A DNA stretch of 45,210 bases from an uncultured Oscillospiraceae bacterium (GTDB lineage Bacteria; Bacillota; Clostridia; Oscillospirales; Acutalibacteraceae). The notes beneath the pieces were generated by a model. That model was not told where the DNA came from and did no database searches. It worked only from the letters and a program-made list of their open reading frames with translations. Positions within the stretch are counted from its first letter, which is position 1. Each line of letters starts with the position of its first letter. The stretch is taken from assembly GCA_902478605.1 (NCBI GenBank), contig CABSLQ010000021.1, positions 1 to 45,210 on the forward strand. The letters run 5' to 3'. Below are positions 9,002 through 45,210 of this stretch, piece after piece. Both the position numbers and the translations under genes were made by a program.

Positions 9002-9015
9002 CCATATGTGATGGT

Positions 9016-9447: not shown

Positions 9448-9476
9448 AAACGCTTGCTTTCCTCCTACATTCACAG

Positions 9477-9758
9477 TCAATCGTCTGGGATTTCCTGATA
9501 TATCTGCTCGCCGGGACGGGCCAGCCCGTTCTGGCGTGCTTGCTGTTCTTTATATTCGTCCGGATTGGACGCCTGATTTTTATAGTTTTCGTTAATCCGC
9601 TCGAGCTCGGCGATCTCGGCCTGCACGTCCCGAATCTGGTCGCGGCGATCGCGGATCTCCAGCTGCAGCTGCACGAGCGTCACGATGACATAGACCGAAA
9701 AGGCAAGGAGGGCAAGACGAAGAAAAATGCTTTTTTTCTTACGTTTGGCGGTCTTCAT
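9477..9758 (-). CDS. divIC: septum formation initiator family protein (DivIC/FtsB)
   Basis: MKTAKRKKKSIFLRLALLAFSVYVIVTLVQLQ (N-in TM helix) followed by a coiled coil. Sits between yabQ and yabR as in B. subtilis. Start taken at the internal ATG 9758. Confidence 0.8.
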   Translation of the reverse strand: MKTAKRKKKSIFLRLALLAFSVYVIVTLVQLQLEIRDRRDQIRDVQAEIAELERINENYKNQASNPDEYKEQQARQNGLARPGEQIYQEIPDD

Positions 9759-10359
9759 GATTGGAAACGTCCCCTCTATATCCCACGCCGACATCACAGG
9801 GCGGGATCGCCCGAACCGCCGGCACACTCCTTTTCTCATTCAAGTCGGCCTCTTGGGCCTTTTTCTTTTGATTATACAATACTTCGCGGCCGTGTTTCAA
9901 GCCCTTTTTCAAAAAAAGGCCAATTTTTTTCAAAGCATTTTCCAGCTTTTTCTGTAAAAAAACAGCAGGTCGGCGCAAAAGTCTCCCCAGAAGGCGAAAA
10001 GGCGCGAAAACCAGGTGCCAGAACCAGTGCCATGCGGTCAGTATCGCCCTGGCCACCGCCTCGGCGCATGCCATGACGACCCGTCCTATCGTAAAGTAAT
10101 ACGCGGCAAACCCGATGACCAGGCCCAGGAACAGATACAGGCGCAGCTCGCCCCCCGTTACGGTCAGCGCAAAGAAAAAGGTGAACACCGCCGCCGATAC
10201 GAAAAAAACGAGATCCTCGAAAAAGATCACCCGTTTGGAGGAATGCATGATGAGGCGCGCCACCCGGAACACATCGTAGTATAATCCCAGCAGGAACCCA
10301 AAGCCGCAGGAAAGGAACAAACCGCCGAGCTGGCCGCCGTTTGTGATGCCCATGTCCAT
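9739..10359 (-). CDS. yabQ: spore cortex biosynthesis protein YabQ-like membrane protein
   Basis: Multi-TM 206-aa protein placed between yabP and divIC; conserved operon position. Confidence 0.65.
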   Translation of the reverse strand: MDMGITNGGQLGGLFLSCGFGFLLGLYYDVFRVARLIMHSSKRVIFFEDLVFFVSAAVFTFFFALTVTGGELRLYLFLGLVIGFAAYYFTIGRVVMACAEAVARAILTAWHWFWHLVFAPFRLLGRLLRRPAVFLQKKLENALKKIGLFLKKGLKHGREVLYNQKKKAQEADLNEKRSVPAVRAIPPCDVGVGYRGDVSNHEDRQT

Positions 10360-10379
10360 CCCTCAGTTCCCGTCCGTCA

Positions 10380-10682
10380 TCATTTGAACAGCCGGCCGAA
10401 AAAGCCGCCGGATCGGTTCTGTACCTCGGTATAGACCAGCGACTGCACATTTCCCTCGAGCATCAGCTCGCCGCTTTCGAGATTAAGGCGGTTGATATGC
10501 AGGTTCTCCCCTTTTACTGTCAGCTCGCCGAGGTCGGTATACACCACCACCGTCAGCTCGTCAAAGCTGTCCACATCGGAGACGCCCGAAACGGTCAGCG
10601 CCCGCCTGTCCTCCAGAATCAGCTGGTGCGGCATCTGGACGATGTTTTTATCCTCCGTCATATGCGGTTCCTTCCTTTCCAC
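10380..10682 (-). CDS. yabP: sporulation protein YabP
   Basis: 100 aa; YabP-like (…LTVSGVSDVDSFDE…LHINRLNLESGELMLEGNV…). Confidence 0.8.
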   Translation of the reverse strand: MERKEPHMTEDKNIVQMPHQLILEDRRALTVSGVSDVDSFDELTVVVYTDLGELTVKGENLHINRLNLESGELMLEGNVQSLVYTEVQNRSGGFFGRLFK

Positions 10683-10789
10683 CGTTTGCGCCTTTTTCGC
10701 GGCGCAAAAGTCCCTTGTATCCCAATGTATGCGGTATGGAAAGGAAATATGCCAAAAAGCGGCGGGCCCGTCCAGGTCCCGCCGCCTGC

Positions 10790-11032
10790 CTATTCGATCA
10801 CGCGGTACAGCAGTGCGGCGTCACTCTTCGCCGCCGTTTCCTGCACCGACACGACCTGCACCTTCACCTGCCGGGTACCGAGCACCAGCTCAATCACGTC
10901 GCCCTCCTTCACGTCATAGGAAGCGCGGGCAGGCTTGCCGCCCACAAGCACCCGCCCCGCATCGCACGCTTCGTTGGCCACGGTGCGGCGCTTGATAAGC
11001 CGCGACACCTTCAGGTATTTGTCCAGCCGCAT
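10790..11032 (-). CDS. yabO: S4-domain RNA-binding protein (YabO/Hsp15-like)
   Basis: MRLDKYLKVSRLIKRRTVANEACDAGRVLVGGKPARASYDV… aligns with B. subtilis YabO. Start at ATG 11032 with an AAAGGAGGG RBS. Confidence 0.85.
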   Translation of the reverse strand: MRLDKYLKVSRLIKRRTVANEACDAGRVLVGGKPARASYDVKEGDVIELVLGTRQVKVQVVSVQETAAKSDAALLYRVIE

Positions 11033-11052
11033 ATTGTCCCTCCTTTCACACA

Positions 11053-11078
11053 AAAAGCCGCCCGGAACCGGACGGCTT
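11053..11078 (-). repeat. 26-nt palindromic element copy 1 (hairpin/terminator immediately upstream of the yabO RBS)
   Basis: AAAGCCGCCCGG-AA-CCGGACGGCTTT, 11/12 bp stem. On the minus strand it is followed by UUUUUGUGUG, then the RBS. Confidence 0.6.
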
Positions 11079-11189
11079 TCCGCGTGTCGACAAAGTCGAC
11101 GCGCTGCTGGACGGGGACGCCGGATCGCAGCGGCTCGCTTTGCTCACCTTGCTTCCATCTGTCTCCGCCAGTGCCGCCCCTGCTCTTGA

Positions 11190-11224
11190 AAAAAGGAGGG
11201 AACACGCCGTGTTTCCTCCTTTTT
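11190..11224 (-). terminator. strong bidirectional-type hairpin terminator (probable hup terminator)
   Basis: 16-bp stem AAAAAGGAGGGAACAC / GTGTTTCCTCCTTTTT with a 3-nt loop. It is flanked by an A-run and a T-run, so there is a U-tract on either strand. Confidence 0.6.
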
Positions 11225-11237
11225 CGCTTATAAGGAA

Positions 11238-11266
11238 TGTTTCCGAGGCGCATGTCCTCGGAAACA
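11238..11266 (-). repeat. perfect 11-bp hairpin TGTTTCCGAGG/CCTCGGAAACA
   Basis: Directly adjacent to the 11190-11224 hairpin. The flanking GGAAACACG (11260-11268) is also complementary to CGTGTTTCC (11208-11216) of the neighbouring hairpin. Confidence 0.5.
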
Positions 11267-11316
11267 CGGGAATATAGAATCGTCACACCCTTGTGCCGAT
11301 TTTCTCCCGACAGATT

Positions 11317-11342
11317 GAAGCCGCCCGGAACCGGGCGGCTTC
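11317..11342 (-). repeat. 26-nt palindromic element copy 2 (just downstream of the hup stop)
   Basis: GAAGCCGCCCGG-AA-CCGGGCGGCTTC, perfect 12-bp stem. Near-identical to the copy at 11053-11078. Confidence 0.6.
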
Positions 11343-11357
11343 TGCAATGGACCCTGC

Positions 11358-11633
11358 TTATTTCGAAACGGCGTCCTTGAAAGCCTTGCCGGCTTTAAAA
11401 ACAGGCTGCTTGGAAGCCGGGATGGTGATGGCTTCCTTCGTGCGGGGATTGCGGCCAGTTCTCGCTTCGCGGGCACGCACTTCGAAGGTACCGAAACCGA
11501 CGAGCTGCACTTTATCGCCACCGGCGAGTGCCTCTTCAACGGATTCCAGGACCGCGGCAACGGCCTTTTCGGCGTCTTTCTTGGTCAGTTCGGCCTTCTC
11601 GGCAACGGAAGCGATGAGTTCTACCTTGTTCAT
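11358..11633 (-). CDS. hup: DNA-binding protein HU
   Basis: [91 protein letters not shown], 91 aa. Start set at the internal ATG 11633. Confidence 0.95.
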
Positions 11634-11716
11634 GATACTGTACCTCCTAGATTTTATACACCAGCGGGTTACACCGCGCATGGACAATAAATAAAAAGGC
11701 GTCCGCCACGGAAAAA

Positions 11717-12514
11717 TCAGCCGCGCTTGGCTTCGGCCCACAGGGCGTCAAGCTCCTCCAGCGATGCGTCCTGCATATCGATCCCCCGGTCTCCCGCCAG
11801 CCGTTCCACCGCCGCAAAACGGCGGATAAACTTATCGGTCGCATCGGTAAGCGCCTGCTCCGCGTCCGCATGGACAAACCGGGACACGTTTACGGCGGAG
11901 AAGAGCAGGTCGCCCAATTCCTCCTCCACATGGGCGGCATCCCCCTGCGCTATGGCTTCCTTAAGTTCGCGCGTTTCGCTGTCAAGCGCCTCGAGCGCGC
12001 CGGATACGTCCGGCCAGTCGAAGCCCACCCGGCGGGCACGGCTCTGCACCTTGGCGGCCCGCATGAGGGCGGGCAGGGTGCGCGGTACGCTGCCGAGCAG
12101 CTCCGCCTGTGTCTTGCCGCCTTTGGTCTCGCGCTTGATGGCATCCCAGTTGCGCAGCACCTGCCCGGCGCTGTCCGCCGTCTCCTGTCCGAACACATGG
12201 GGGTGGCGGATAATCAGCTTCTTGCAGATGCCGTCCACCACATCGGCAAAGGAGAAAACGCCCTTTTCCTCTTCGATGCGGGCATGAAACACCACCTGCA
12301 GCAGCACGTCGCCGAGCTCCTCTTCCAAGGCGGCGGCATCGGCATTGCCGATGGCTTCGAGCGCCTCGTGTGTCTCCTCGAGGAAATCGGAGCGAATGCT
12401 CTCGTGCGTCTGCTCCCGGTCCCAGGGGCAGCCCTCGGGCGAGCGCAGCAGGCGCATGATTTCCAGCAAATCGTCCATCCCGTATGTGTCTTTGAACGTG
12501 AAGGAAACCGCCAT
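11717..12514 (-). CDS. mazG: nucleoside triphosphate pyrophosphohydrolase MazG (YabN)
   Basis: Tandem MazG domains (…EEAYEVLEAI-like [10 protein letters not shown]…[15 protein letters not shown]…). Confidence 0.9.
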
Positions 12515-12618
12515 ACTACCTCTTCCCAACCGGTGAATTTCGCGCATGCTGGTATTATATTACCCTATCCATCCGCATTTTTCAAGTAGTTGCGCAATTT
12601 TTTCACCTTTCGGCAGGC

Positions 12619-14298
12619 TTAAAAATCCTCCTTTGCGAGCGAACGGGTCAAGAAAAGCGCTAAAACATACACGAGTGCCGCCAGAAGCACCGCGCAGGCG
12701 GTGGCGATTTTTGGCTCCATTACACGGCTGAGCAGCCCGTTGGCGGACCAGGCCGCCGCACCGCAGCACAGCGCCGCCGCCAGCGGCCGCAGGAAAACTT
12801 TTCCGGCGGCCAGGCGCACCTGCGTTTGCCTGTGCAGGGCCCACAGGCTCATCACCACCATAAACATATAGCAAACCAGCGTGCTGTACGCCGCCCCCAT
12901 GATATTCAGCTGCGGCTGGCGGATCAGCGTCAGATTAAGCACCAGCTTGATAACGCCGCCGGCCAGGATGATTTTCAGCGGGATATCCGCCCGCCCGATC
13001 GCCTGCAGCATCGCGTTGATGGGGCCCGTCAGGCAGATGAAGACCACCGCCGCCCCCAGCACGGTGAGCAGCGGCCCGACCACCTGTGCCACATGCTGCT
13101 GCCCGTAAATCATAAAGAGAATCGGCTTGGCGAGTACGGCCAGCCCTACGCTCGCCGGCAGGGCCACCAGCAGCGTCAGCCGGATAACCGATTCCACCGT
13201 GCGCTTCAAATAGCCCCGGTTTTTCTGCGCCCAGGCGGAGGTGATGACGGGCAGCGCACTGATGCCGAAGGTCAGGGTGATGTTGGGCACCAGGTTGACA
13301 TAGGTCATGGCGGTCCCCCGCCCGCCGATAAGCCAGCCGAGCACATCGGTTGTGCCGCTCTGCTCTATCCAGGGGGCATACATCGTCCGCACCGCATCGC
13401 CGTGCTGTTCCATAACCGTTTTCAGGCACCGCTGGAGGGAGGCCACGTCGATGAGGTTGGTCAGCTGGGTCGCGAGCGCGCCCATTGCCACCGGCACCGC
13501 GATGCGCATGAGCGCGCGCAGCGTCGCGCGGCCCGTATCGGGCGGGGGCGACGCGGCCAGCTGCTCGGCGGTGATACCGGTGCCGGTGCGCCGGTGCCGT
13601 ATCACCATGTACACCAGGGCGAAAAAGGATCCGGCCGTCACCCCGAACATCGCCCCCGCCGCCACAAAGGGGAGGCTCAGTTCCCTGGCCTCGGCGGCGG
13701 TGGCCGCCATCGTGCCGTACACGGGCTGCCCGCTGCGGAACTGCCACTGTCCGAATTCCAGGGCACCGACCGCGGCCCCCAGCCCGAGCACCAGTTTGCC
13801 AAGCGCCTCCATGACCTGCGACACGGCGGTGGGCGTCATATTGCGCAGTCCCTCGTACAATCCGCGGTGGGCTGACACAAGGCAGCAGAAAAATACCGCC
13901 GGCGCCATGACCACCATCGGCCAGAAGCTACCGGGAATCCCCACAAAAGCGGGATAGAAAAACGCCGCCCCCAGCATCACGAGCATACCGAGCGTACCCG
14001 TCAGCAGGAAGGCTTTGCGGGCCACGCGGTAAATCACCTGCACGTCGCGGTAGCGGCCGAGCGAGACACTCGCCGCCACCATGCGGGACACCGCAATGGG
14101 AAAGCCCGCCAGCGCGATGGTATACACCGGCAGATACACGTCATACGCCGTGGCAAAATATCCGAAGCCGGTGATGCCGGCAATTTCTTCCCGCTGAATG
14201 GGGATCTTGAACAGGGCGCCGATGATCTTGGTCAGCACGGCGGCCAGCGAGAGAATGACGGCCCCCTGCTGGAAGCTGTGCCGTTTATTTTTCGTCAA
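12619..14298 (-). CDS. MOP-superfamily polysaccharide biosynthesis/flippase protein (SpoVB/YabM-like)
   Basis: 559 aa, about 14 TM segments, with the SpoVB/YabM family signature. Position upstream of mazG matches B. subtilis yabM. Confidence 0.8.
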   Translation of the reverse strand: MTKNKRHSFQQGAVILSLAAVLTKIIGALFKIPIQREEIAGITGFGYFATAYDVYLPVYTIALAGFPIAVSRMVAASVSLGRYRDVQVIYRVARKAFLLTGTLGMLVMLGAAFFYPAFVGIPGSFWPMVVMAPAVFFCCLVSAHRGLYEGLRNMTPTAVSQVMEALGKLVLGLGAAVGALEFGQWQFRSGQPVYGTMAATAAEARELSLPFVAAGAMFGVTAGSFFALVYMVIRHRRTGTGITAEQLAASPPPDTGRATLRALMRIAVPVAMGALATQLTNLIDVASLQRCLKTVMEQHGDAVRTMYAPWIEQSGTTDVLGWLIGGRGTAMTYVNLVPNITLTFGISALPVITSAWAQKNRGYLKRTVESVIRLTLLVALPASVGLAVLAKPILFMIYGQQHVAQVVGPLLTVLGAAVVFICLTGPINAMLQAIGRADIPLKIILAGGVIKLVLNLTLIRQPQLNIMGAAYSTLVCYMFMVVMSLWALHRQTQVRLAAGKVFLRPLAAALCCGAAAWSANGLLSRVMEPKIATACAVLLAALVYVLALFLTRSLAKEDF

Positions 14299-14325
14299 AT
14301 GCGTCCCCCTCTTCCGCTTCCGCCG

Positions 14326-15150
14326 TCAAACCTGTGCCGCCAGCGCGCGCATCAGCGCACAGAACCGGTCGGCCGCCTTCCCGGCGTTTTGGCCGACCTC
14401 CTCGTCGCTGAGCACGCCGTCGGGCGTCATGCCGGCCGCGGCATTGGTGATGCAGGAAATGCCGAGCGTTTCCATGCCGCACTGGGCGGCGGCGATGGCT
14501 TCCGGCACGGTAGACATGCCCACCGCATCCCCGCCGAGCAGCCGGATGGCGCGGATTTCCGCCGGCGTTTCGAACTGCGGACCGGCCATATAAAAATATA
14601 CGCCGCGGCGCAGGGATATGCCAAGTTTTTCCGCCGTCTCCTCCGCCAGCTGACGCAGGCGCGGCGAATAGGGCCGGCTCATATCAAAAAAGCGCGCGCC
14701 GAACGCCGGCAACTGCGGTCCGCGGGCGGGGCTCTCGGTGAAGAACTTGATGTGATCCTCGATCAGCATGAAGTCGCCCACCTGAAAATCCGGGTTGACA
14801 CCGCCCGCCGCGTTGGTGAGCAGCAGGCGGCGCACGCCGAGCAGATGCATCACCCGCACATAAAAGGCGGCCTGTTCCATCGAATAGCCCTCGTAATAGT
14901 GAAAACGCCCCGACAGCACGGCGGCCGGGCGGCCGTTCAACCGGCCGAGCAGCAGACGCCCCGCATGAGACGCGACGGTGGAACGCGGAAAATGGGGAAT
15001 ATCCGCATAGGGCAGCACGACTGCCCCCTCCACCTCGTCCGACAGCCGGCCAAGGCCCGAACCGAGCACCAGGCATATGGCGGGCGGGACCGGCATGTGC
15101 GCGCGGATATACGCCGCCGCTTCCTCGTAATGCTCCATCGGTATCGCCAT
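14326..15150 (-). CDS. punA: purine nucleoside phosphorylase I (inosine/guanosine-specific)
   Basis: 274 aa; close to B. subtilis PunA (…GSGLG…FHYYEGYSMEQAAFYVRVM…VGMSTVPEAIAA…). Confidence 0.92.
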   Translation of the reverse strand: MAIPMEHYEEAAAYIRAHMPVPPAICLVLGSGLGRLSDEVEGAVVLPYADIPHFPRSTVASHAGRLLLGRLNGRPAAVLSGRFHYYEGYSMEQAAFYVRVMHLLGVRRLLLTNAAGGVNPDFQVGDFMLIEDHIKFFTESPARGPQLPAFGARFFDMSRPYSPRLRQLAEETAEKLGISLRRGVYFYMAGPQFETPAEIRAIRLLGGDAVGMSTVPEAIAAAQCGMETLGISCITNAAAGMTPDGVLSDEEVGQNAGKAADRFCALMRALAAQV

Positions 15151-15263
15151 ATGGGATCGACCGCCTTTCTTTTAATTGGATCGCATCGGGAGCAGATAAG
15201 CCCCCTCGCGGGGCGGATTATCCGCTTCCGATTAACGATACCAGTTTTCGGCGCATAAAGCAA

Positions 15264-15292
15264 GAGGCAAACCGGTGCTGCCGGTTTGCCTC
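15264..15292 (-). terminator. hairpin terminator after zinc-ribbon gene
   Basis: GAGGCAAACCGG-TGCTG-CCGGTTTGCCTC, perfect 12-bp stem. Followed on the plus strand by CCATGCTTTTTATT. Confidence 0.5.
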
Positions 15293-15313
15293 CCATGCTT
15301 TTTATTGGTCTTT

Positions 15314-15712
15314 TTATTCCTGCTCGTCGGTTTTCGTCTCCTCGGCGGCTGCCTTCTCAATTTTGGTGCCGCACTTTTTGCAGAACTTGGAATCGTCCGT
15401 GTTGACGGCATCGCACTGCGGGCAGCGCACAACATTGTTGTATTCGTCGATCTTCGCGCGCAGGCGGCGGGCCTTCTCATTCATCTCGTCGATCTTCGCG
15501 ATGCATTCTTCGGTCAGGGCGGACACGTCCTGGCCCGATTTGCGCCCGTCATAGACGAGACGGCCAAGGCCCTCCAGCGTGGCGGCAATGTCCTTCTCGG
15601 CCTCTGCCGCTTCCATCTTCAGCTTGGTGACCTCTACTATATCGCTGGCCTTTTTGCCCACGCACTCCGCTGCGTTTTTGCCTTTGCACAGGATTTCCTC
15701 AAACGTTGTCAT
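15314..15712 (-). CDS. hypothetical coiled-coil protein with C-terminal zinc ribbon
   Basis: 132 aa; CPQC…CKKC zinc-ribbon near the C-terminus. Consensus sigma-A promoter TTGCAT-17-TATAAT at 15780..15752 (minus strand). Confidence 0.6.
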   Translation of the reverse strand: MTTFEEILCKGKNAAECVGKKASDIVEVTKLKMEAAEAEKDIAATLEGLGRLVYDGRKSGQDVSALTEECIAKIDEMNEKARRLRAKIDEYNNVVRCPQCDAVNTDDSKFCKKCGTKIEKAAAEETKTDEQE

Positions 15713-16020
15713 GGTAAAAACCTGCCTTTCTCACAATCGGGTGGTTGTTTGTGTTGTTCTTATTATACCGCAGCCGTGCGGGAAATGCAACCGACAGACG
15801 CTTTAAGACGATGAAGACAATCTTAAGAATACGCGAACAAAGTGTGAACTCCGCATTGACGGACAAGGGCAAACGCACCTGCCTGTTTTTTACCCCCACG
15901 GCAAACCTTTCCGTGCTTTTCAGCCGTGAAAAAGAGGAGGCCGCGGACCCGCACCCGGCAGCGGGGACAACGCCGCGCCACCCGTTCTTCCGAAACCATA
16001 TTATCCCCTTGCAGCCAATG

Positions 16021-16974
16021 TTAATATTCGTAAATCCCGCCGCCGATGAATTCGCGCAGCAGCGTGTCCGGCGGCAAATCGTCCGCGCTCAGCGGGGCGA
16101 ACCGCTCCAGCTCGGCTTCCAGGCGGCGAATCGTCTCATACCCGGGGTGATCCGGCGCCACCTGCCGCAGCAGAGGCATCAGCTCGCCTGCAAACACGCA
16201 GGGCTCATACGCGTGGGTGGTGTCCACCACGATGTCCACCGTATCCACATAGGGGAACATATACAGGTTTTCCCCGCGCACCACCTGCTGCCACATGTGC
16301 AGCGTATTCTCCAGCGAGCTGTTGCGGAACCGGTAATCGCGCAGCAGCCGCCGCACCAGCCGGATATCCCGCCGGGCCATCACCTTCCCCTCCTTATCGT
16401 AGATGGGGGAAATGGTGTTAACAAACAGTTTTATCACATTCTGCTGGGGCAGGAACCGCTCAAACAGGGGATTGAGCGCGTGGATCCCCTCAAAGATCAC
16501 CACCGAATCGTGGGACAGGACCAGCTCGGTCGTCTCGGCGGCCGGGCGCCGGGTTTCAAAATCAAAGCGGGGCAGCGCGGCGCGGCCTTCCTTTATCAGC
16601 CGGCGCATACAGTCCTGCAGCCGGTCCAGATCGAGCGCTTCCGGCGCTTCATAGTCGAAGCTGCCGTCGGGCAGGCGGGGCGCCTGCTCCTGGCCGCGGT
16701 AAAAGTTGTCGAGCGACACGGTATGCGCATCCATACCCAATCCGCGCAGCCGGTCGCGCAGCAGCAGCGCGGTCGTGGTTTTACCCGACGAGGAGGGACC
16801 CGACTGCAGCACGATGAGCCGATCCTGCGCGCCGGTGGCAATCTGCCGCACCGCCGCATCGAGGTCGTCGGAATACCGCGCGTTTTCCTCTTCGATGAAG
16901 GCCGCGGGCTCCGTGGCGACCCGCTTATTGATCTCCTCGAGTGTCAGAACCCGTTTTGGTAAAATACGTTTCAT
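16021..16974 (-). CDS. uridine kinase-family nucleoside kinase (P-loop)
   Basis: 317 aa; Walker A GPSSSGKTT and the PRK/uridine-kinase fold. Its 5' end overlaps the upstream radical-SAM gene's 3' end by 50 nt. Confidence 0.7.
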   Translation of the reverse strand: MKRILPKRVLTLEEINKRVATEPAAFIEEENARYSDDLDAAVRQIATGAQDRLIVLQSGPSSSGKTTTALLLRDRLRGLGMDAHTVSLDNFYRGQEQAPRLPDGSFDYEAPEALDLDRLQDCMRRLIKEGRAALPRFDFETRRPAAETTELVLSHDSVVIFEGIHALNPLFERFLPQQNVIKLFVNTISPIYDKEGKVMARRDIRLVRRLLRDYRFRNSSLENTLHMWQQVVRGENLYMFPYVDTVDIVVDTTHAYEPCVFAGELMPLLRQVAPDHPGYETIRRLEAELERFAPLSADDLPPDTLLREFIGGGIYEY

Positions 16975-18427
16975 AAAATTTCGTCACTTGTTCCTTCCGG
17001 GCGATCATCTCGGCAAAGCCGGCATTGTATTCATACGGGAATTTATAGTTGAATATGCGTTCGAGATAGTGGGTGCCGTACTGCTTGAGCTTGGTCACCG
17101 CGCCGGCGCCGCAGGCCAGAATGGTATGGGTCTCGTCCATAATATACACGTTATACAGGCCCTCGCGCCCCGGGCGGGCCCAGCCGACGTTTTCCTGGTT
17201 GCCCACGGTGCGGCTCTGCCGGTACAGATAATACGGTCGGTACCCCGCCGCCGGAAGCCGGTCGGCGGTCAGTCCCACCATGCGCGCGGCGTCGTCCTGT
17301 ACGCGGTAATCGGCGCGGTGCTGCACCACGAGATTGGATGCCCGCTTCATGGATAGGGTATGTACCGTTATGCTTTCCGGGGCGAGCGCCAATATACCCG
17401 ACAGCGTGCCGGCGAACCCGTCAAAATCGTCGCCCGGCAGGCCGGCGATGAGATCCGTGTTGATGTTGTCGAAGCCGCAGCGGCGCGCCGTATCGTACGC
17501 CGCATAAAACTGCTCCACCGTGTGCCGCCGCCCAATGGCCTGCAGCACGTCGTCGCGCAGCGTCTGGGGATTGATGCTCACCCGCGTCACGCCGGCGGCC
17601 CGCAGGGTGCGCAGCTTGTCCTCGGTGACGGTGTCGGGCCGGCCGGCCTCCACCGTGTATTCCCGCAGATGGGACAAATCGAAATGCGCTTCCACCGTGC
17701 GCAGCAGGAAAGCCAGCTGCTCGGCCGTCAGGGTGGTGGGCGTGCCCCCGCCGAAATACACCGTTTCGAGCCGCAGGCCCAGCGCCTTTGCCAGCGCGCC
17801 GGTATGGGCGATTTCTTTGGCGAGCAGCTCCACATATTGGGGAATCAGCCTGGCCGCCCGCTCCACCGTCTGGGACACAAAGGAGCAGTAATCGCACCGC
17901 GTGGGGCAGAAGGGGATGGAGATATACAGGCTGAAGGATTCCGGCCGGGACAGGGCGAGGATTTCGTCCTCCACGGCCAGGGTGCGGCAACACAGGGCGA
18001 GCTTTTCCGGGCTGACGAGCAGCCGGTCGCGAAAGGCGGCCGCCGCCTTTTCTTCCCCCATCTCCCGCGTGAAGCTGCGCAGCAGCTTGACCGGCCGCAC
18101 GCCGGTGATGACGCCCCACGGCGGCGCAAAGCCGAACAGCCGCACAAACAGCCGGTACAGCAGCGTCGCCAGCTGCAGCTCGCAGGCGTCCCGGTAATCG
18201 GGGCGGTCGTTCGCCACCGTGTCGGACAGCTCCTCACAAAAGTCGTCCAAACGCAGCCGGCAGGTCAGCCGGGTTTCCTCCTCCCCTTTGTCCAGGCAGG
18301 TCGACGCGATCACGCCGCCGGCCGCCTCGCCGCCGTCGGTCACCCGTATTTTTTCCTGCGGCAGAAACAGGCGGCAGATATTTTCCATTTCAAAGCGGAA
18401 CCCATGTCCGCGCATTTCCAGAATCAT
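16925..18427 (-). CDS. radical SAM protein, HemN/HemZ family (oxygen-independent coproporphyrinogen-III oxidase-like)
   Basis: CPTRCDYC (CxxxCxxC) radical-SAM motif plus the HemN C-terminal domain. Start set at ATG 18427 (MILEMRGHGF, GGAGAAG RBS); the 66-aa track extension overlapping the MBL gene is rejected. Confidence 0.85.
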   Translation of the reverse strand: MILEMRGHGFRFEMENICRLFLPQEKIRVTDGGEAAGGVIASTCLDKGEEETRLTCRLRLDDFCEELSDTVANDRPDYRDACELQLATLLYRLFVRLFGFAPPWGVITGVRPVKLLRSFTREMGEEKAAAAFRDRLLVSPEKLALCCRTLAVEDEILALSRPESFSLYISIPFCPTRCDYCSFVSQTVERAARLIPQYVELLAKEIAHTGALAKALGLRLETVYFGGGTPTTLTAEQLAFLLRTVEAHFDLSHLREYTVEAGRPDTVTEDKLRTLRAAGVTRVSINPQTLRDDVLQAIGRRHTVEQFYAAYDTARRCGFDNINTDLIAGLPGDDFDGFAGTLSGILALAPESITVHTLSMKRASNLVVQHRADYRVQDDAARMVGLTADRLPAAGYRPYYLYRQSRTVGNQENVGWARPGREGLYNVYIMDETHTILACGAGAVTKLKQYGTHYLERIFNYKFPYEYNAGFAEMIARKEQVTKFYETYFTKTGSDTRGDQ

Positions 18428-37702: not shown

Positions 37703-39154
37703 TTATACCGCCTGCGGCTGGTTCACCATGCCGCCAAAAAGCACGGCGCCCGTCACGTCGTCCACCAGCGCGCAGAAGAAGGGCCGATCCAGGCAGATGG
37801 TTTTCACCTCATCCGGGTTGGGCCGGGCGCTGGCCGCCGTCATCAAAACGGCCGCAGCGGAGGCGGCAAGCACCCCTTTTTCGTCCATCTCCAGCTCGGT
37901 GCGGTGGATCACCCTCTCCATATACGGTTCCAGCCCGCTCTTACCGTCCGCCATGCGGGAAAAATCTGCCTGGCCCTGCCGGAAGGCCGCCTGTATACCC
38001 ATCGCCTGCAGCACGTCGTTCAGCTCTCCGTCGTAGGACAGCCGGCATTTCGGCACCGTCAAATTGAGCCGCGCCGCCTTGTCCCCGCATTGCGCCACGG
38101 TGCGCAGCTCTTTTGCCGTCAGGCTCCGGAACCACCTGTCCAGCACCGCCGTCCCCTCCTCCTTGGGCAGCACAAAGAGCATCGACGCATCCGCTTCGGC
38201 AAACGCCAGGCGGGTGGCCTGCACCTCGTCGTCCTCGTAATAGGGCGCCCCGATTCTGGAGGTGTGCATCAGCGGCAGGGTCACCGCCTCCTGCGCCCCG
38301 TGGAAAGTGCCTGCCTGCGGTTCCGGGAAGGGCTCTTCCCACTGCCCCTCAAAGAGCAGCGTGTTGACCAATACCATCAGGCCGTCGGGATTCAGCGGTT
38401 CCTTCAGCAAATCGCGGATCCGCCCCGCCGTATTGCCCCACACCCACAAATTGATCTCCTTTTGCAGCGCATCGTCAAAGGACCCGGCGGCCAGCCGGGC
38501 ACCAAAATACTCCCGGTTGACGGCGGTGAAAGCAGGCAGGATATCCGATGCCATCTTTTGATTGACCCAGATGCCGTTAGCCAGCCGGAACTGCTTCTCG
38601 TTCAGCCGGGACTGCAGATCGCGGCAGCCGCGGTTCAGCGCACTGCCGTCCGACACGCCCAGCGCCGCGTATAGCTCCTCCGCCGTTTTACCGGCCGCCC
38701 CGTTTGTCACCATGCCCAGCGCGAGATACACGCTGGCCGGCGACACGAACCCGTTTTGGCCCTCCAGCTGGGCGCGCTGCATGAACTCCAGCGCAAACGC
38801 ATCGTAGCCCGCCGCAAAATCGTTGGAAAGAGCCGCGGCCGGCTCCAGCCCCCTAAGCCGGCCCGGCGGCTGCCCCGTCATATCGTCGTGTACCGTGACA
38901 GCGGTCCGGGTGGCTTTTGACATGGTGGTGGCGGGCTCCGTCGAGTTTTGGATCGTGCGGACCGTCTCAGTGGTGCGCACCGCATCGGTTGTCTGCGCTG
39001 CGTCCGCCGCTTCCCCGGCCGTCGGTTCCGTTGCCGCGGCGGAGAGGGTCGTCTGCGGCGGCCCGCTTTTTCCCGGCGCCGGTGTGCCGCAGGCCGCGCA
39101 CCCCAGCAGCAGCGCCGCCGCGCCGAGCAGGCCCCCCCATCGCGTCTTGTTCAT
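37703..39154 (-). CDS. serpin-family serine protease inhibitor, lipoprotein (paralog 1)
   Basis: 483 aa; lipobox LLGC; NTLLFEGQW breach-like motif, hinge EKGVLAASAAA, C-terminal serpin signature …ICLDRPFFCALVDDVTGAVLFGGMV. Inferred P4-P1 is MTAA. Confidence 0.9.
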   Translation of the reverse strand: MNKTRWGGLLGAAALLLGCAACGTPAPGKSGPPQTTLSAAATEPTAGEAADAAQTTDAVRTTETVRTIQNSTEPATTMSKATRTAVTVHDDMTGQPPGRLRGLEPAAALSNDFAAGYDAFALEFMQRAQLEGQNGFVSPASVYLALGMVTNGAAGKTAEELYAALGVSDGSALNRGCRDLQSRLNEKQFRLANGIWVNQKMASDILPAFTAVNREYFGARLAAGSFDDALQKEINLWVWGNTAGRIRDLLKEPLNPDGLMVLVNTLLFEGQWEEPFPEPQAGTFHGAQEAVTLPLMHTSRIGAPYYEDDEVQATRLAFAEADASMLFVLPKEEGTAVLDRWFRSLTAKELRTVAQCGDKAARLNLTVPKCRLSYDGELNDVLQAMGIQAAFRQGQADFSRMADGKSGLEPYMERVIHRTELEMDEKGVLAASAAAVLMTAASARPNPDEVKTICLDRPFFCALVDDVTGAVLFGGMVNQPQAV

Positions 39155-39171: not shown

Positions 39172-40587
39172 TTATTGGTGCGGCTGGCTGACCGCGCCGC
39201 CGAACAGCACCGCACCCGTGGCGTTGTCCACGATTGCGCAGAAGAAGGGTCGATCGAGCCGCATCACCTTGCCCTCGTCCTCGGGCGGCCGGAGCGCGAC
39301 GCCTCGCAGCGTCACGCCGGTGGCCGCCGCCGCGAGCACACCCTTTTCATCCATCTCCAGCTCGGTACGGTGCGGCACGTCGCCGATATACACCCCGCCG
39401 TCGGCCGTCAGGCGGCTGAAATCCGCCCGGCCCGCGTCGAATGCCGCCTGTATGACCATTTCCTGCAGCGGACCGGCCAGGCTTTCGTCATAGGACAGCT
39501 TGCAGCGCGGCACGGTCAGTTCCAGCTTGGGCGTGGTGTCCGTACTGCTGACAAGGGCACGCAGCTGCTCCGCCGTCAGGTTCTTTATCCAGCTGTCCAG
39601 CGCCGCGGCTCCTTCCGTTTTGGGCAGCACAAAGAGCATGGACACATCCGCCTGGCTGAAGGGCACCCGCGTCGCCTGCACCTGCGCATCCTCATAATAG
39701 GGCTTGCCCACCAGCATCCGGTACATAAAGGGCAGTGTCACGTCCTCCTGTGCACCGTGGAAAATACTTTCTTCCACCTTGGTAAAGGGCACCTGCCAGG
39801 CGTCCTCGAAAAGCAGCGTGTTGACCAGCACCATCCGGCCCTCGGGATCCAGCGGTTCCTTCAGCAAATCGCGGATGCGTCCCGCCGTGTTGTCCGCTAC
39901 CCAGCTGTTTATCTCCTTCGTCAGCGCGGCGTCAAAGGGGGCGGCGGTCAACTGCGCGCCAAAATACTCCCGGTTGGCGGCGATGAAAGCGGGCAGGATA
40001 TCCCTCGCCTTCTCCTGGTTTATCCAGATGCCGTTGGCCAGCCGGAAGGTGTTGTCGGTCAGCCGGGACTGCAGATCGCGGCAGCCGCGGTTCAGCGCGT
40101 CGCCGTCGGTCACCCCCAGCGCCGCATACAGCTCCTCCGCTGTTTTACCGGCCGCTCCGTTTGCCGTCATGCCCAGCGCCAGATACACGCTGGCCGGTGA
40201 CACAAACCCGTTTTTCCCCTCCTGCTGGGTGCGCTGTATGAGTTCCAACGCAAACCCGTCGTATCCGTCCGCAAAGGTCTTGGAAAAAGCCGCAACCGGC
40301 TCCAGCCCCTGCAGGCGTCCTTCTTTCGGGCTCTCCGTATCGGTGCCCTGCGCCGCGGAACCCGCCTGGGTGGTGTTGGCGGCGGTGGTCTCGGCCTGGG
40401 TGGTGTGCGCCGGGACAGTGCCGGTCGTTTCGGCCGCAGACGTGTCTGTCTGCGCCGCCGCGCTTTCCGGCGCGCCGGTCGTTCCCGGCGCCGGCGCTCC
40501 GCACGCCGCACACCCCACAAGCAGCGCCATGGCACACAGCGCCGCGGCCATCGTGGTACCTGGTTGTCTTTGGATTCTCCGTTTCAT
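39172..40587 (-). CDS. serpin-family serine protease inhibitor, lipoprotein (paralog 2)
   Basis: 471 aa; lipobox LVGC. Collinear with paralog 1; hinge EKGVLAAAAT, C-terminal …RLDRPFFCAIVDNATGAVLFGGAV. Inferred P4-P1 is LRGV. 17-nt gap to paralog 1, with a GAGGAGAGG RBS. Confidence 0.9.
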   Translation of the reverse strand: MKRRIQRQPGTTMAAALCAMALLVGCAACGAPAPGTTGAPESAAAQTDTSAAETTGTVPAHTTQAETTAANTTQAGSAAQGTDTESPKEGRLQGLEPVAAFSKTFADGYDGFALELIQRTQQEGKNGFVSPASVYLALGMTANGAAGKTAEELYAALGVTDGDALNRGCRDLQSRLTDNTFRLANGIWINQEKARDILPAFIAANREYFGAQLTAAPFDAALTKEINSWVADNTAGRIRDLLKEPLDPEGRMVLVNTLLFEDAWQVPFTKVEESIFHGAQEDVTLPFMYRMLVGKPYYEDAQVQATRVPFSQADVSMLFVLPKTEGAAALDSWIKNLTAEQLRALVSSTDTTPKLELTVPRCKLSYDESLAGPLQEMVIQAAFDAGRADFSRLTADGGVYIGDVPHRTELEMDEKGVLAAAATGVTLRGVALRPPEDEGKVMRLDRPFFCAIVDNATGAVLFGGAVSQPHQ

Positions 40588-42183: not shown

Positions 42184-42570
42184 TCACTGTATTCCCTCGT
42201 TTTCCTTGATGCCGTGGCTCTTTACCTTGCGTCGCAGGACTTTGAGCTCCCCGTTTGCCGAGTATTTTTCGTATATCCAGCGGTAGATAGTTCGCCAGCT
42301 TGGCATCTTTCGCCCGCACGGCGGACAGGCAATCTGTTCTGGTGGCCAAGTTGCTTTCAGTTTCTCATTGATGCAGTCGACCTCTTCCTGAGAATGAAAC
42401 ATTTCTCGATGACAGCAGGAACGCCGCAGAAAATGTTTCTTCTGTGCTGTGTGCGAACAGCAGGATGGAATATCACACATGTGTGTACAGTTTCTCCGTA
42501 TCTCCTTGGACACCGTGCTCACATTCCTTCCCGCCAGCCGTGCAATCTCTCGGCAACTCAGGCCATTCAC
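42184..42570 (-). mobile_element. IS30-family transposase N-terminal fragment (remnant/pseudogene)
   Basis: 128 aa; HTH region LSCREIARLAGRNVSTVSKEIRRN and WPPEQIA…RTIYRWIY, typical of the IS30 transposase N-terminus. There is no room for a DDE catalytic domain before azlD. Confidence 0.7.
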
Positions 42571-42711: not shown

Positions 42712-42746
42712 TGAAAAAGAAGCCAGCGCCTAAACGGCGCTGGCTT
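42712..42746 (-). terminator. rho-independent terminator of the surface-protein gene
   Basis: AAGCCAGCGCC-TAAAC-GGCGCTGGCTT. On the minus strand it is followed by CUUUUUCACC. Confidence 0.7.
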
Positions 42747-42821: not shown

Positions 42822-45210
42822 TTATCTCAGCTTTTTCCTCACCCGCTTGACCTTCAGCGTTCCCAACACACCGCCGGATACGAACAGCAGGGCGACCCAA
42901 AGCGCAAGGCTACTGTTGTCGCCGGTCTGCGGACCTTCGGGCTCGCTGCCGCCGGGGTTGGTCGGCTGTGACGGTTCGGCCGGCTCATAATCCGGATCCG
43001 CTGCACCGCAGACGATGCACTTCCCGTCTTCAAAGTCATGTCCCAGCGCGGGGATGATTCGCCAGGTGTCCACATCGGCTATCGCTTTGGTGCATGCCTC
43101 GTCCTCAAAGGACATTCCGCAGGTGCAGGTGTAATACGCCTTGCTGCCGGCCTCGGTGCAGGTGGCGTCCCGGCCCACGACCGGAATAGGCGTATGGGTA
43201 TGGGCCTTTGTCACCTTTATGCACGCCGCATCCGTTGTGACCGTGGCGGTCGGGTAGTATGCCTTACCGTTTGTATTGGTGATCACGCAATAGTAATAAT
43301 AGGTACCCTCGGCGGATGTATCGGGCGTGAAGCTGGGGCTGTTTGTGCCCACCTTGGTCCCGCCGTCCGTGCTGCCGTCGCTGCTTTGGTACCACTGGTA
43401 GGATAGGGTTCCGCCGTCCGTCACGCCTGCCTCCACCGTCAGGGGGCTTGCCGGATCGCCCACGGAATATTGGGCGTTTTGCGGCTGAGCCGTAATGACG
43501 GGAGGTTGGGCGTTTTCCGGCTGGCCGTTGTCGATCCAGTGGGCATACAAGGTTTCGTCCGCGGAATAGATCCGGCTGCTGACGGTGACATGCGTGCCGC
43601 CCTCTTTTTCCGTGTACCAACCGTCGAAGTCATAGCCGATGCGCTGGGGCACAGGCATATAGGCGAGCTGCTGGAGCACTGTAGTCATGGAAATTTCAGA
43701 AACGCTGCCGCCGTTGGGGTCAAAGGTAATGACGTACTCTCCGCTGGAAGAACCTATGACTGTGATGTCTGCAACCCGTGAATAGAGGGTCAGCGTCTTG
43801 CCGTCGGGGTAGGCGGCGGTGATTTCACAGTAGTAGTAGTATGTGGACATGTAGTATGCATTCGGTTCCATCTGTGTAGCGGGCACAAAGCTGTTCTGAT
43901 CGGCCCCATCTATGGCAGCGCCACCCTCGGTATCTGGGTACTTGTTCTCGTACCACTGATAGGTGAGGCTGCAGCCCTCCGGGGCTTCCACCTCTACGGT
44001 CAGCGGCACAGCCGTATCGCCTTCCCTGTACGCCGCGCTGGCCGGCTGGGTGGTGATAACCGGCGCTTGGGCATCCACAACGGTAATCTTCGCTCTGTCC
44101 GAGGTGATTTGCGCCATTTTGCTGTTGGACGCGTACTCGTTTGTATTGGTCGCCACGCAGTAGTAGTAGAAGATCCCGGCCTCATCTGTGGGCGGCGTGA
44201 AGGTGCTCTGGGTGGCGCCGTCTATGGGTGTGCCGGCGCTTGTCTCGTCGGGGCTGACATACCACTGATAGGTCAGCCTGCCGCCGTCGCCTACAGATGC
44301 GGAATAAACCAGATCGTCCACCTGGGCGCCCTTGCCGTATGTGGCGTCGTTCATGACCTCCCAGTTAAGCTGCGGCTCCATGGCGTCTACGACGCCTGTA
44401 GGCTCCACAACGGTCACCTGGGCGATATCGCTCCGCGTAGAAGCCGTTTGTCTGCCGCTGACGTTTTTGTTGGTATTGGTCACCACGCAGTAGTAATAGA
44501 AGGTGCCCAGTTCGTCTGCCATGTCCGTGCAGAAGCTGTCGGTCGCTCCTTCCACGGGCTGCGCTCCGGAGCCGTCTTCGTTGCAGCGGTACCACTGGTA
44601 GGAAAGGACGCCGCCGTCGGTCAGGTCAAGGACGGTCATCGGGAGAAAGATTTCGGTGTTGATGATCTGTTCCTCCACATCATCCGGCTGGTCGGCGATG
44701 ACGGGCGTGAGGGCGTCCGGGCTCCACTGGGCATAGAGGGTGATGGCATTCTCGAAATCATCGTACTGCGTCATCTGCCTGCCGCCCTCCGGCTGCGTGT
44801 ACCAGCCCATGAAGGCATAGCCTTCCTTTTCGGGGATCGGCAAGTTTCCGTCAGGCCTGATCCTGCCGCTGCTCTGGTCGTAGAACTTCAGCGGGACCTT
44901 GTCGACGCTCACGCTGCCGCCCTGGGCATCCAGCGTGACATAGACCGTGCCGGTATAGACCGGGATGGCTTCTGTTTTGACCGTGGCGGTCTGGTTGCCG
45001 GTAATCTCCGGATTTGTATTGCGGTTTGTAATCACGCAGTAGTAGTAGACGATGCCATCCTGCGAGGTGTCCGGCGCACATCTGAAATACTCGGCCTTCT
45101 CGATAGGCGTGCCGTTTTCGTTGCTGGCCGTATCGCTCCGGTACCATTTATACAAAAGCGTACCGCCGTCCGGCGACACAGCATCGACATAAAGGCCGTT
45201 GCTGATATGG
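42822..45210 (-). CDS. large cell-surface protein with Ig-like and Listeria-Bacteroides (Flg_new-type) repeats and a C-terminal sortase-type sorting signal; N-terminus beyond window end
   Basis: The reading frame is open to the window end; the track's GTG 'start' at 45179 is internal. At least 6 repeats of about 95 aa share L(T/S)YQWY…G…YYYYCV(I/V)TN. Two GYxFxGWYT…LYAxW modules are present. The C-terminus carries a Cys-rich region, then EGPQTGD, a hydrophobic segment and KVKRVRKKLR. Confidence 0.8.
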   Translation of the reverse strand, partial: HISNGLYVDAVSPDGGTLLYKWYRSDTASNENGTPIEKAEYFRCAPDTSQDGIVYYYCVITNRNTNPEITGNQTATVKTEAIPVYTGTVYVTLDAQGGSVSVDKVPLKFYDQSSGRIRPDGNLPIPEKEGYAFMGWYTQPEGGRQMTQYDDFENAITLYAQWSPDALTPVIADQPDDVEEQIINTEIFLPMTVLDLTDGGVLSYQWYRCNEDGSGAQPVEGATDSFCTDMADELGTFYYYCVVTNTNKNVSGRQTASTRSDIAQVTVVEPTGVVDAMEPQLNWEVMNDATYGKGAQVDDLVYSASVGDGGRLTYQWYVSPDETSAGTPIDGATQSTFTPPTDEAGIFYYYCVATNTNEYASNSKMAQITSDRAKITVVDAQAPVITTQPASAAYREGDTAVPLTVEVEAPEGCSLTYQWYENKYPDTEGGAAIDGADQNSFVPATQMEPNAYYMSTYYYYCEITAAYPDGKTLTLYSRVADITVIGSSSGEYVITFDPNGGSVSEISMTTVLQQLAYMPVPQRIGYDFDGWYTEKEGGTHVTVSSRIYSADETLYAHWIDNGQPENAQPPVITAQPQNAQYSVGDPASPLTVEAGVTDGGTLSYQWYQSSDGSTDGGTKVGTNSPSFTPDTSAEGTYYYYCVITNTNGKAYYPTATVTTDAACIKVTKAHTHTPIPVVGRDATCTEAGSKAYYTCTCGMSFEDEACTKAIADVDTWRIIPALGHDFEDGKCIVCGAADPDYEPAEPSQPTNPGGSEPEGPQTGDNSSLALWVALLFVSGGVLGTLKVKRVRKKLR

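What the first reader, a model, noticed from the sequence alone, without database searches (positions are those of the whole stretch)
42822..45210. Giant sortase-substrate surface protein: Ig-like repeats, Listeria-Bacteroides repeats and a Cys-rich C-terminal module with a non-canonical xPQTG sorting signal
At least six ~95-aa Ig-like repeats share L(T/S)YQWY…YYYYCV(I/V)TN. They are interleaved with two GWYT…LYAxW modules. A distinctive Cys-rich segment follows (CTEAGSKAYYTCTCGMSFEDEACTKA…CIVCGA). The C-terminus reads EGPQTGD, then a hydrophobic helix, then KVKRVRKKLR. The sorting motif is not LPXTG but resembles the clostridial (S/P)PXTG class. The gene continues beyond the window. It is a probable host-interaction adhesin, and the Cys-rich module is of unknown function.
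Basis: partly seen in the sequence, partly recalled or inferred. Interest (0 to 1): 0.55.

Follow-up and report, generated by a model that had tools for sequence, protein, structure and literature searches.

The report
Wall-anchored giant surface protein, C-terminal stalk
This is the last 795 residues of a roughly 3,000-residue surface protein of an uncultured chicken-gut Clostridium; it is built from known repeat types and ends in a clostridial-type sortase anchoring signal, so it is an ordinary new member of a known class.

Summary
An open minus-strand frame (stop codon 42822-42824) runs off the window end, which is also the end of the source metagenome contig. It encodes 5 Ig-like repeats (not the stated six or more; the sixth lies upstream in orthologues) and 2 Flg_new modules. 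These are followed by a 76-residue Cys/His module, a linker, GPQTG, a hydrophobic helix and a KVKRVRKKLR tail.

The tail passes NCBIfam's LPXTG-anchor cutoff. In 11 orthologous loci it is conserved as [G/S/I]P[Q/R/K]TG[D/G], which matches the (S/P)PXTG class cleaved by C. difficile SrtB. No sortase gene lies in the 45 kb window, and the rest of the genome could not be searched.

The Cys-rich module is not unique. It is homologous to the putative zinc-binding rod domains (ZBD1/CTD2) of the Thomasclavelia ramosa IgA protease, which also ends in SPQTG. The family has at least 24,720 protein clusters and no solved structure.

Full-length orthologues are 3,079 residues and add a signal peptide, an N-terminal type I dockerin and a central cohesin. 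That points to a sortase-anchored scaffold or stalk rather than a demonstrated host adhesin.

Verdict: new member of a known kind, low-to-moderate interest.

The parts
44952..45209 (-). Ig-like repeat 1, cut at its N-terminal side by the window/contig end (fragment residues 1-86; LLYKWY...VYYYCVITN)
   Evidence: Translation; motif positions; coordinates.
44715..44951 (-). Flg_new (Listeria-Bacteroides repeat) module 1, residues 87-165 (GWYTQPEGG...LYAQW)
   Evidence: Pfam PF09479, E 9.4e-26 with 2 stretches; TIGR02543; coordinates.
44400..44714 (-). Ig-like repeat 2, residues 166-270
   Evidence: profile of the repeats finds 629 such domains in 113 homologues.
44073..44399 (-). Ig-like repeat 3, residues 271-379
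   Evidence: weak SCAB-Ig match at residues 308-345.
43752..44072 (-). Ig-like repeat 4, residues 380-486 (divergent: YYYYCEITA)
43515..43751 (-). Flg_new module 2, residues 487-565 (GWYTEKEGG...LYAHW)
   Evidence: Best Pfam Flg_new stretch at residues 492-557; coordinates.
43209..43514 (-). Ig-like repeat 5, residues 566-667
   Evidence: Ig_3 best stretch at residues 569-645. AlphaFold2 model has pLDDT 97.4 and is all-beta. Foldseek PDB hits are Ig/PKD domains: Robo1, AAVR, titin, SraP.
42981..43208 (-). Cys/His module (residues 668-743; 6 Cys, 3 His). It consists of one long unit (HTH...ATCTEAG...YYTCTCG...IPALGH) plus a terminal CxxC cap (GHDFEDGKCIVCGAADPDYEP). It is a putative structural-zinc rod domain.
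   Evidence: phmmer match to PDB chain 9qa6_A (T. ramosa IgA protease), E 1.6e-4 for the window version and 4.5e-7 for the orthologue version. In alignment A1, C684, G688, C695 and C697 are invariant, and H672 and H724 are nearly invariant. AF2 pLDDT 88.9. No PDB fold match. Family size.
42936..42980 (-). Pro/Gly/Ser-rich linker AEPSQPTNPGGSEPE, residues 744-758
   Evidence: variable in length and sequence among orthologues.
42921..42935 (-). Sorting pentapeptide GPQTG, residues 759-763, 37 residues from the C-terminus
   Evidence: TIGR01167 17.2 bits, cutoff 15.9. Orthologues read [G/S/I]P[Q/R/K]TG.
42825..42920 (-). Hydrophobic segment (DNSSLALWVALLFVSGGVLGTL) and basic tail KVKRVRKKLR. The stop codon is at 42822-42824.
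42720..42746 (-). Intrinsic-terminator-like hairpin (11 pairs, 8 G-C) followed by a T-run, 75 nt after the stop codon
   Evidence: This is a consensus match only.

Best explanation
The region encodes the C-terminal, wall-proximal part of a giant secreted surface protein of an uncultured, spore-forming chicken-gut Clostridium. Orthologues of this protein are about 3,079 residues.

Shown here:
- Five Ig-like beta-sandwich domains are interleaved with two Flg_new domains.
- These are followed by one Cys/His module, a Pro/Gly linker and a tripartite cell-wall sorting signal (GPQTG, hydrophobic helix, Lys/Arg tail).

Inferred mechanism:
- After Sec export, the tail holds the protein in the membrane.
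- A housekeeping sortase of the C. difficile SrtB type cuts between T and G of GPQTG and links the threonine to peptidoglycan.
- The Cys/His module binds structural zinc. The proposed sites are H672/C684/C695/C697, and H724/C731/C734 plus a fourth ligand.
- That module forms a rigid rod next to the wall. The Ig/Flg_new array extends the stalk.
- The stalk projects the N-terminal part, which in orthologues holds a type I dockerin, about 1,300 residues of unknown fold, and a cohesin.
- The protein therefore probably acts as a wall-anchored stalk or scaffold for cohesin-dockerin assembly. Adhesion to host or particles is possible but has not been shown.
For: - The frame is open and its codons are under purifying selection: dN/dS is 0.22-0.37 against 10 orthologues.
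- Flg_new and Ig_3 score above the Pfam cutoffs. The Ig fold is confirmed by an AF2 model with pLDDT 97.4 and Foldseek hits to Ig/PKD domains.
- TIGR01167 LPXTG_anchor scores above its cutoff.
- P, T and G of the motif, the helix and the basic tail are conserved in 11 orthologous loci, while the linker varies.
[quoted passage not shown] Its substrates end in ...SPKTGD..., a hydrophobic stretch containing SGG, and then KRRK, much like this tail (PMC4155245).
- The Cys/His module is homologous to ZBD1 of the T. ramosa IgA protease. [quoted passage not shown] Its ZBD/CTD2 domains are predicted to hold His/Cys zinc sites, and CTD2 behaves as an extended rod in SAXS (PMC12237041; PMC12415215).
- Full-length orthologues have a signal peptide, Dockerin_1, 5 Flg_new stretches, a Cohesin, 6 Ig-like repeats and the same tail.
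- Other family members carrying the Cys/His repeats end in SPxTG/NPxTG/xxQTG tails and never in LPXTG.
Against: - No sortase gene was found in the 45 kb window. The precomputed Pfam calls show no PF04203 and there is no TLxTC ORF. There is also no TLxTC ORF in the flanks held (up to 10 kb) of loci L001-L013, which include the orthologous loci. The rest of the genome was not searchable.
- GPQTG has glycine at position 1. This variant has not been tested with any sortase, and the srtB_target model TIGR03063 scores below its cutoff (16.3 against 18.15).
- The N-terminal two-thirds of this organism's own protein is not available, so the signal peptide, dockerin and cohesin are inferred from orthologues at 77-88% identity.
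- Zinc binding is unproven even for the T. ramosa domains, where it rests on predicted models only.
- Some predicted C. difficile sortase substrates end up in other cell compartments (title and abstract of PMC5569036).
Confidence: 0.75

Rival explanations
1. The C-terminus acts as a simple membrane anchor (or a release signal) and is not processed by a sortase. The PQTG is a conserved linker motif, and the protein stays in the membrane or is shed.
For: No sortase gene was found in the window or next to any orthologue. Position 1 of the motif is G, not S or P. TIGR03063 scores below its cutoff. T. ramosa IgAse activity is found mainly in the culture supernatant despite its SPQTG motif. Putative C. 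difficile substrates show disparate locations (PMC5569036).
Against: P-x-T-G is invariant across 11 orthologues, while the flanking linker and motif positions 1 and 3 vary. TIGR01167 passes its cutoff. Housekeeping sortases are normally not encoded next to their substrates (PMC4155245). The same motif class recurs at the end of unrelated proteins carrying the Cys/His repeats.
Confidence: 0.12
2. The protein is primarily a host- or mucus-binding adhesin. The Ig-like and Flg_new arrays would be the binding surface rather than a passive stalk.
For: Flg_new repeats occur in Listeria internalins; the orthologue gives partial internalin_H and internalin_A matches. Ig-like arrays are common in adhesins such as SraP, which appears among the fold hits. 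dN/dS of 0.22-0.37 is fairly high, as is often seen for surface-exposed proteins.
Against: No known ligand-binding domain (LRR, lectin, collagen-binding) was detected in the fragment or in the orthologue. The only interaction modules identified are a cohesin and a dockerin, which bind each other's class, not host molecules. Nothing in the data tests binding.
Confidence: 0.1
3. The gene is a decaying or truncated pseudogene, or a chimeric assembly artefact, because it sits at a contig end next to an IS30-like remnant.
For: The contig ends inside the gene; the contigs found through the neighbouring azlD (19 were read, 6 places shown) were 45 kb or shorter, and wherever the gene was reached it ran off a contig end. 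An IS30-type HTH remnant lies about 250 nt downstream of the stop codon. The Cys/His module is 153 residues shorter than in orthologues.
Against: 795 codons are open, with dN/dS well below 1. Identical C-terminal sequence was recovered from five further contigs from different samples. The 153-residue difference is in frame and lies exactly between two repeat copies. The contig break is what short-read assembly of internally repetitive DNA would produce.
Confidence: 0.03

Closest known systems
Thomasclavelia ramosa IgA protease (IgAse/IgAP; UniProt Q9AES2; PDB 9QA6), C-terminal domains ZBD1/ZBD2 (= CTD2/CTD4) plus the SPQTG anchor
   Same: The Cys/His unit (HxH...ATCTxAG...YYxCxxC...IPAxGH) aligns to the start of ZBD1, with E 1.6e-4 for the window version and 4.5e-7 for the orthologue version. 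[quoted passage not shown] Neither has a solved-structure homologue.
   Different: No M64 metalloprotease domain was found here or in the orthologue. The window has CxC (YYTCTCG) where IgAse has CxxC. Upstream domains are Ig-like and Flg_new rather than the wrapping, open beta-sandwich and barrel domains.
Clostridioides difficile SrtB substrates with (S/P)PXTG signals (for example CD630_33920 and the other predicted substrates in Table 1 of PMC4155245)
   Same: Both have the motif class xPxTG followed by D, a hydrophobic stretch containing SGG, and a K/R tail. Cleavage between T and G has been demonstrated for SPQTG and PPKTG. Orthologues here carry SPQTG and SPRTG.
   Different: The window has G at position 1, which is untested. 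The cognate sortase was not identified. The organism is an uncultured chicken-gut Clostridium only distantly related to C. difficile. The passenger domains are different.
Sortase-anchored cohesin scaffoldins of Ruminococcus (such as R. flavefaciens ScaE; from my own knowledge, not tested here)
   Same: Orthologues combine a cohesin with a C-terminal sortase signal.
   Different: The cohesin and dockerin lie outside the window. The same polypeptide also has an N-terminal dockerin. No glycoside hydrolase or CBM was detected, and no cohesin-dockerin partners were examined.
Periscope proteins (SasG, Aap, Rib-type stalk proteins)
   Same: A wall-anchored protein with a repetitive rod region whose length varies by whole repeat units. 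Here there is a 153-residue in-frame difference in the Cys/His module between orthologues. The concept was applied to the IgAP CTDs in PMC12415215.
   Different: The repeats are not near-identical at the DNA level (60-86% over short stretches). The domain families are different (not G5/E or Rib).
Listeria internalin B-repeat / Flg_new (PF09479, TIGR02543) proteins
   Same: There are two bona fide Flg_new domains in the window and five stretches in the orthologue.
   Different: No LRR internalin domain is present. The internalin_H and internalin_A scores are far below their cutoffs (60.6 against 1050).

Membership tests
Sortase substrate (cell-wall sorting signal) | Pentapeptide motif 17-45 residues from the C-terminus | tested here: met
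   GPQTG begins 37 residues from the C-terminus. The criterion is taken from PMC4155245.
Sortase substrate (cell-wall sorting signal) | A hydrophobic segment after the motif, then at least 2 consecutive basic residues at the C-terminus | tested here: met
   SSLALWVALLFVSGGVLGTL is followed by KVKRVRKKLR. This is conserved in 11 orthologues.
Sortase substrate (cell-wall sorting signal) | Scores above the curated cutoff of the LPXTG_anchor model TIGR01167 | tested here: met
   17.2 bits against a cutoff of 15.9. Pfam Gram_pos_anchor is below its cutoff (12.8 against 20).
Sortase substrate (cell-wall sorting signal) | N-terminal Sec signal peptide | not testable with these tools
   The N-terminus lies beyond the contig end. 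Orthologue L010 starts MKKRIISLVLTCSVLFSVLPLSVLPAFA, which looks signal-peptide-like by eye; no predictor was run.
Sortase substrate (cell-wall sorting signal) | A sortase gene in the same genome | not testable with these tools
   None is in the 45 kb window: there is no PF04203 among the precomputed Pfam calls and no TLxTC ORF.
Class B sortase target (TIGR03063 srtB_target) | Score above the curated cutoff | tested here: not met
   16.3 bits against a cutoff of 18.15. The protein is therefore not filed as a TIGR03063 member. The resemblance is to the C. difficile (S/P)PXTG class only.
C. difficile-type (S/P)PXTG motif | S or P at position 1, P at 2, T at 4 and G at 5 | tested here: inconclusive
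   The window has G at position 1. Orthologues have S (L008, L009, L010), G or I. P2, T4 and G5 are invariant.
Flg_new / List_Bact_rpt (PF09479, TIGR02543) | Score above the curated cutoffs | tested here: met
   90.2 bits against 27, and 43.3 bits against 20.95, with two stretches.
Immunoglobulin-like domain (Ig_3, PF13927) | Sequence score above the cutoff and a beta-sandwich Ig fold | tested here: met
   36.3 bits against a cutoff of 30. The AF2 model of repeat 5 has pLDDT 97.4 and 8 strands. Foldseek hits are Robo1 Ig1-2, AAVR PKD, titin and FGFR, with TM 0.5-0.65.
IgAse ZBD/CTD2-type Cys/His zinc-binding rod module | Sequence homology to ZBD1 with conserved His/Cys ligand positions | tested here: met
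   E 1.6e-4 (window version) and 4.5e-7 (orthologue version) against chain 9qa6_A. C684, C695 and C697 are invariant, and H672 and H724 are at least 90% conserved across 20 units.
IgAse ZBD/CTD2-type Cys/His zinc-binding rod module | Actual zinc binding and an extended rod shape | not testable with these tools
For IgAse itself the zinc sites are predicted only, and the rod shape comes from SAXS of CTD2.
Cohesin-dockerin (cellulosome-like) scaffoldin | Cohesin and/or dockerin module in the protein | not testable with these tools
   Neither is in the window fragment. In orthologue L010, Dockerin_1 scores 43 bits against 22.9 and Cohesin 30.1 bits against 24.1. The dockerin is confirmed against PDB type I dockerins.

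The most novel reading that the evidence does not exclude
The Cys/His unit belongs to a very large family of tandemly repeated extracellular zinc-knuckle rod modules: at least 24,720 clusters at 50% identity, with up to 55 units per protein. The family has no solved structure and no dedicated model in the Pfam copy searched. In this orthologue group the module length changes by in-frame recombination between repeat copies (76 residues here, 229 in orthologues). It could therefore be a zinc-dependent, length-variable periscope stalk. In addition, a dockerin and a cohesin on one wall-anchored polypeptide could allow head-to-tail self-assembly into a surface polymer in a gut Clostridium for which no cellulase or CBM module was detected in this protein.
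Probability: 0.2. Interest if true: 0.55.

Novelty: new member of a known kind. Interest (0 to 1): 0.25.

Why it matters
The gene itself is one more large wall-anchored repeat protein in a gut Firmicute. Its main value is as a pointer. It shows that the putative zinc-binding rod domain, described in 2025 only for the T. ramosa IgA protease, is a very common building block of clostridial surface proteins and usually sits next to xPxTG sortase signals. An experimental structure and metal analysis of any one member would annotate tens of thousands of proteins. The dockerin-cohesin-sortase architecture of the orthologues may also be relevant to how uncultured chicken-gut Clostridia organise their cell surface.

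Tried and rejected
- Searching for the complete ORF of this organism failed. The window end is the end of ENA contig ERZ28618341 scaffold_924. None of the contigs found through the neighbouring azlD gene was longer than about 45 kb, and wherever this gene was reached it ran off a contig end.
- Looking for a sortase by TLxTC motif in the window and in loci L001-L013 gave nothing. The precomputed Pfam calls for all window genes show only housekeeping genes.
- The Pfam copy has no model for the Cys/His repeat. Family members only accumulate sub-threshold hits to assorted zinc-finger families. Accessions PF26918 and PF27618, precomputed on some homologues, could not be resolved with the available library.
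- An Rfam scan of the window and two full-length orthologue loci found no riboswitch or other RNA. In particular there is no c-di-GMP riboswitch of the kind that regulates some C. difficile sortase substrates.
- No tRNA was found between azlD and the gene.
- A literature search for periscope, zinc and sortase gave nothing closer than the IgA protease papers.
- The pseudogene reading was rejected on the open frame and on dN/dS of 0.22-0.37.
Full report
**Observation**

The finding lies on the minus strand. Frame window:42822-45209(-) is open for 795 codons plus a stop at 42822-42824 and runs off the window end.

Pfam finds two Flg_new domains (E 9.4e-26) and Ig_3 above its cutoff (36.3 bits against 30). 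NCBIfam finds TIGR02543, and the LPXTG_anchor model scores just above its cutoff (17.2 against 15.9). srtB_target is just below its cutoff (16.3 against 18.15).

The window contains five, not six or more, Y(Q/K)WY...Y(Y/F)C repeats. The first is cut by the window edge, and the units are 102-109 residues long. The order is Ig-Flg-Ig-Ig-Ig-Flg-Ig, then the Cys/His module, linker and sorting signal. A terminator-like hairpin follows the stop codon on the same strand. At the DNA level the repeats are only 60-86% alike over short stretches.

**Source and context**

The window is a metagenome contig (ENA ERZ28618341 scaffold_924, 45,664 nt), and the contig end is the window end. None of the contigs found through the adjacent azlD gene exceeded about 45 kb, and wherever this gene was reached it ran off a contig end. 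The full ORF of this organism is therefore not available.

The rest of the window is chromosomal housekeeping: groES/groEL, relA, recJ, hflX, nadABC, yabP/yabQ sporulation genes, azlCD and two serpins. No sortase family hit appears among the precomputed Pfam calls, and there is no TLxTC ORF.

**Orthologues**

A genome scan found orthologues at 66-88% best-segment identity in uncultured Clostridia MAGs, several of them named from chicken gut (Ca. Fimenecus excrementigallinarum, Ca. Woodwardibium gallinarum, Ca. Avimonas, Ca. Howiella). In L008 the frame is open for about 3,109 codons back from the stop, and in L010 the ORF from its likely start codon is 3,079 residues.

The L010 protein has this architecture:
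- a signal-peptide-like start
- Dockerin_1 at residues 34-90, confirmed against PDB type I dockerins
- five Flg_new stretches
- about 1,300 residues with no family match
- a Cohesin at residues 1805-1908
- six Ig-like repeats
- a longer Cys/His module
- the same tail

dN/dS of the window fragment against 10 orthologues is 0.22-0.37, so the gene is under purifying selection and is not decaying.

**Sorting signal**

In 11 orthologous loci the tail reads [G/S/I]P[Q/R/K]TG[D/G], followed by a hydrophobic segment containing SGG and a K/R tail. P, T and G are invariant, while positions 1 and 3 and the linker vary.

[quoted passage not shown] Among 150 top representatives of the Cys/His family, 25 end in such tails. 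Their motifs are of the SPxTG/NPxTG/xxQTG type and none is LPXTG.

The enzyme was not found, and G at position 1 has not been tested with any sortase.

**Cys-rich module**

The 76-residue module (6 Cys, 3 His) matches the sequence of PDB chain 9qa6_A, the T. ramosa IgA protease. The E-value is 1.6e-4 for the window version and 4.5e-7 for the longer orthologue version.

The matched region is the start of ZBD1 (also called CTD2). Two 2025 papers describe this region as a putative His/Cys zinc-binding domain of an uncharacterised fold. It was modelled rather than resolved in the structures. In SAXS it behaves as an extended rod, and the authors propose it as a periscope stalk domain. [quoted passage not shown]

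A profile of the unit finds 24,720 cluster representatives at E up to 0.001 and 12,966 at E up to 1e-10, with up to 55 tandem units per protein. The Pfam copy has no dedicated model for it.

The window version is 153 residues shorter than in orthologues. The difference lies exactly between two near-identical copies of GRDATCTEAGSK.YYTCTCGMSFEDEACT, which indicates an in-frame recombination.

**Ig-like repeats**

Repeat 5 was modelled with 35 homologous repeats. The model has pLDDT 97.4 and is an eight-strand beta-sandwich. Its best PDB matches are Ig and PKD domains: Robo1, AAVR, titin, FGFR and SraP.

**Interpretation**

The most likely reading (about 0.75) is the wall-proximal stalk of a sortase-anchored giant surface protein. 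In this reading, the zinc-stabilised Cys/His rod and the Ig/Flg_new array project an N-terminal region that carries a dockerin and a cohesin.

The domains, the signal and its conservation are shown. Sortase processing, zinc binding, stalk function and the presence of the N-terminal modules in this particular organism are inferred.

The 'host adhesin' label is untested. The only interaction modules seen (cohesin and dockerin) point instead to protein-protein assembly.

Three rivals were considered:
- a membrane anchor without sortase processing (about 0.12)
- a true adhesin (about 0.10)
- a pseudogene or assembly artefact (about 0.03)

**Novelty**

Each part belongs to a known family, and the combination of a Cys/His rod with an xPQTG anchor has a published precedent in the T. 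ramosa IgA protease. This is a new member of a known kind, of low-to-moderate interest (0.25).

The more interesting by-product is the size of the still-unsolved Cys/His module family and its length variation between orthologues.

Noticed in passing
window 37703-39154 (-) and 39172-40587 (-): Two tandem serpin genes (PF00079, E 7e-75 and 9e-78). The second starts with a lipoprotein-like signal (…LVGCAACG). Bacterial serpins in a gut Clostridium may target host or dietary proteases.
   Followed up: partly
window 42184-42570 (-): A 128-residue ORF between azlD and the big gene matches only the HTH_38 N-terminal part typical of IS30-type transposases (E 5.9e-8). It looks like a truncated insertion-sequence remnant, and public gene callers did not call it as a gene.
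   Followed up: partly
window 42981-43208 compared with L003 and L010 (alignment): The Cys/His module is 153 residues shorter here than in orthologues. The gap lies exactly between two near-identical repeat copies, so it is an in-frame recombination that changes stalk length.
   Followed up: yes
window end 45210; L043-L048, L049: Public assemblies found through the neighbouring genes (19 contigs read via azlD, 16 via nadA, none over about 45 kb) run off a contig end inside this gene wherever it is reached, so its internal repeats seem to break short-read assembly. The only long-read locus (L001) is riddled with frameshifts that split genes such as feoB.
   Followed up: partly
L010 about 4570-8400 (orthologue residues about 100-1380): A region of about 1,300 residues between the N-terminal dockerin and the central Flg_new/cohesin part has no Pfam, NCBIfam or PDB sequence match. 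It is probably the functional head of the protein.
   Followed up: no
homologues P0121, P0144, P0151-P0154, P0166-P0168: The precomputed annotations list newer Pfam accessions (PF26918, PF27618, PF26182) that are absent from the searchable Pfam copy. One of them might already cover the Cys/His repeat.
   Followed up: partly
P0263, P0134 and P0141: The same Cys/His repeats occur in proteins anchored by choline-binding repeats, and in proteins with a dockerin or a cohesin. The module is therefore a general extracellular spacer used with several anchoring systems.
   Followed up: no
window 1-18000 (L050 gene calls): The context includes sporulation genes yabP/yabQ and divIC together with groES/groEL, which indicates a spore-forming Clostridia chromosome rather than a mobile element.
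   Followed up: no
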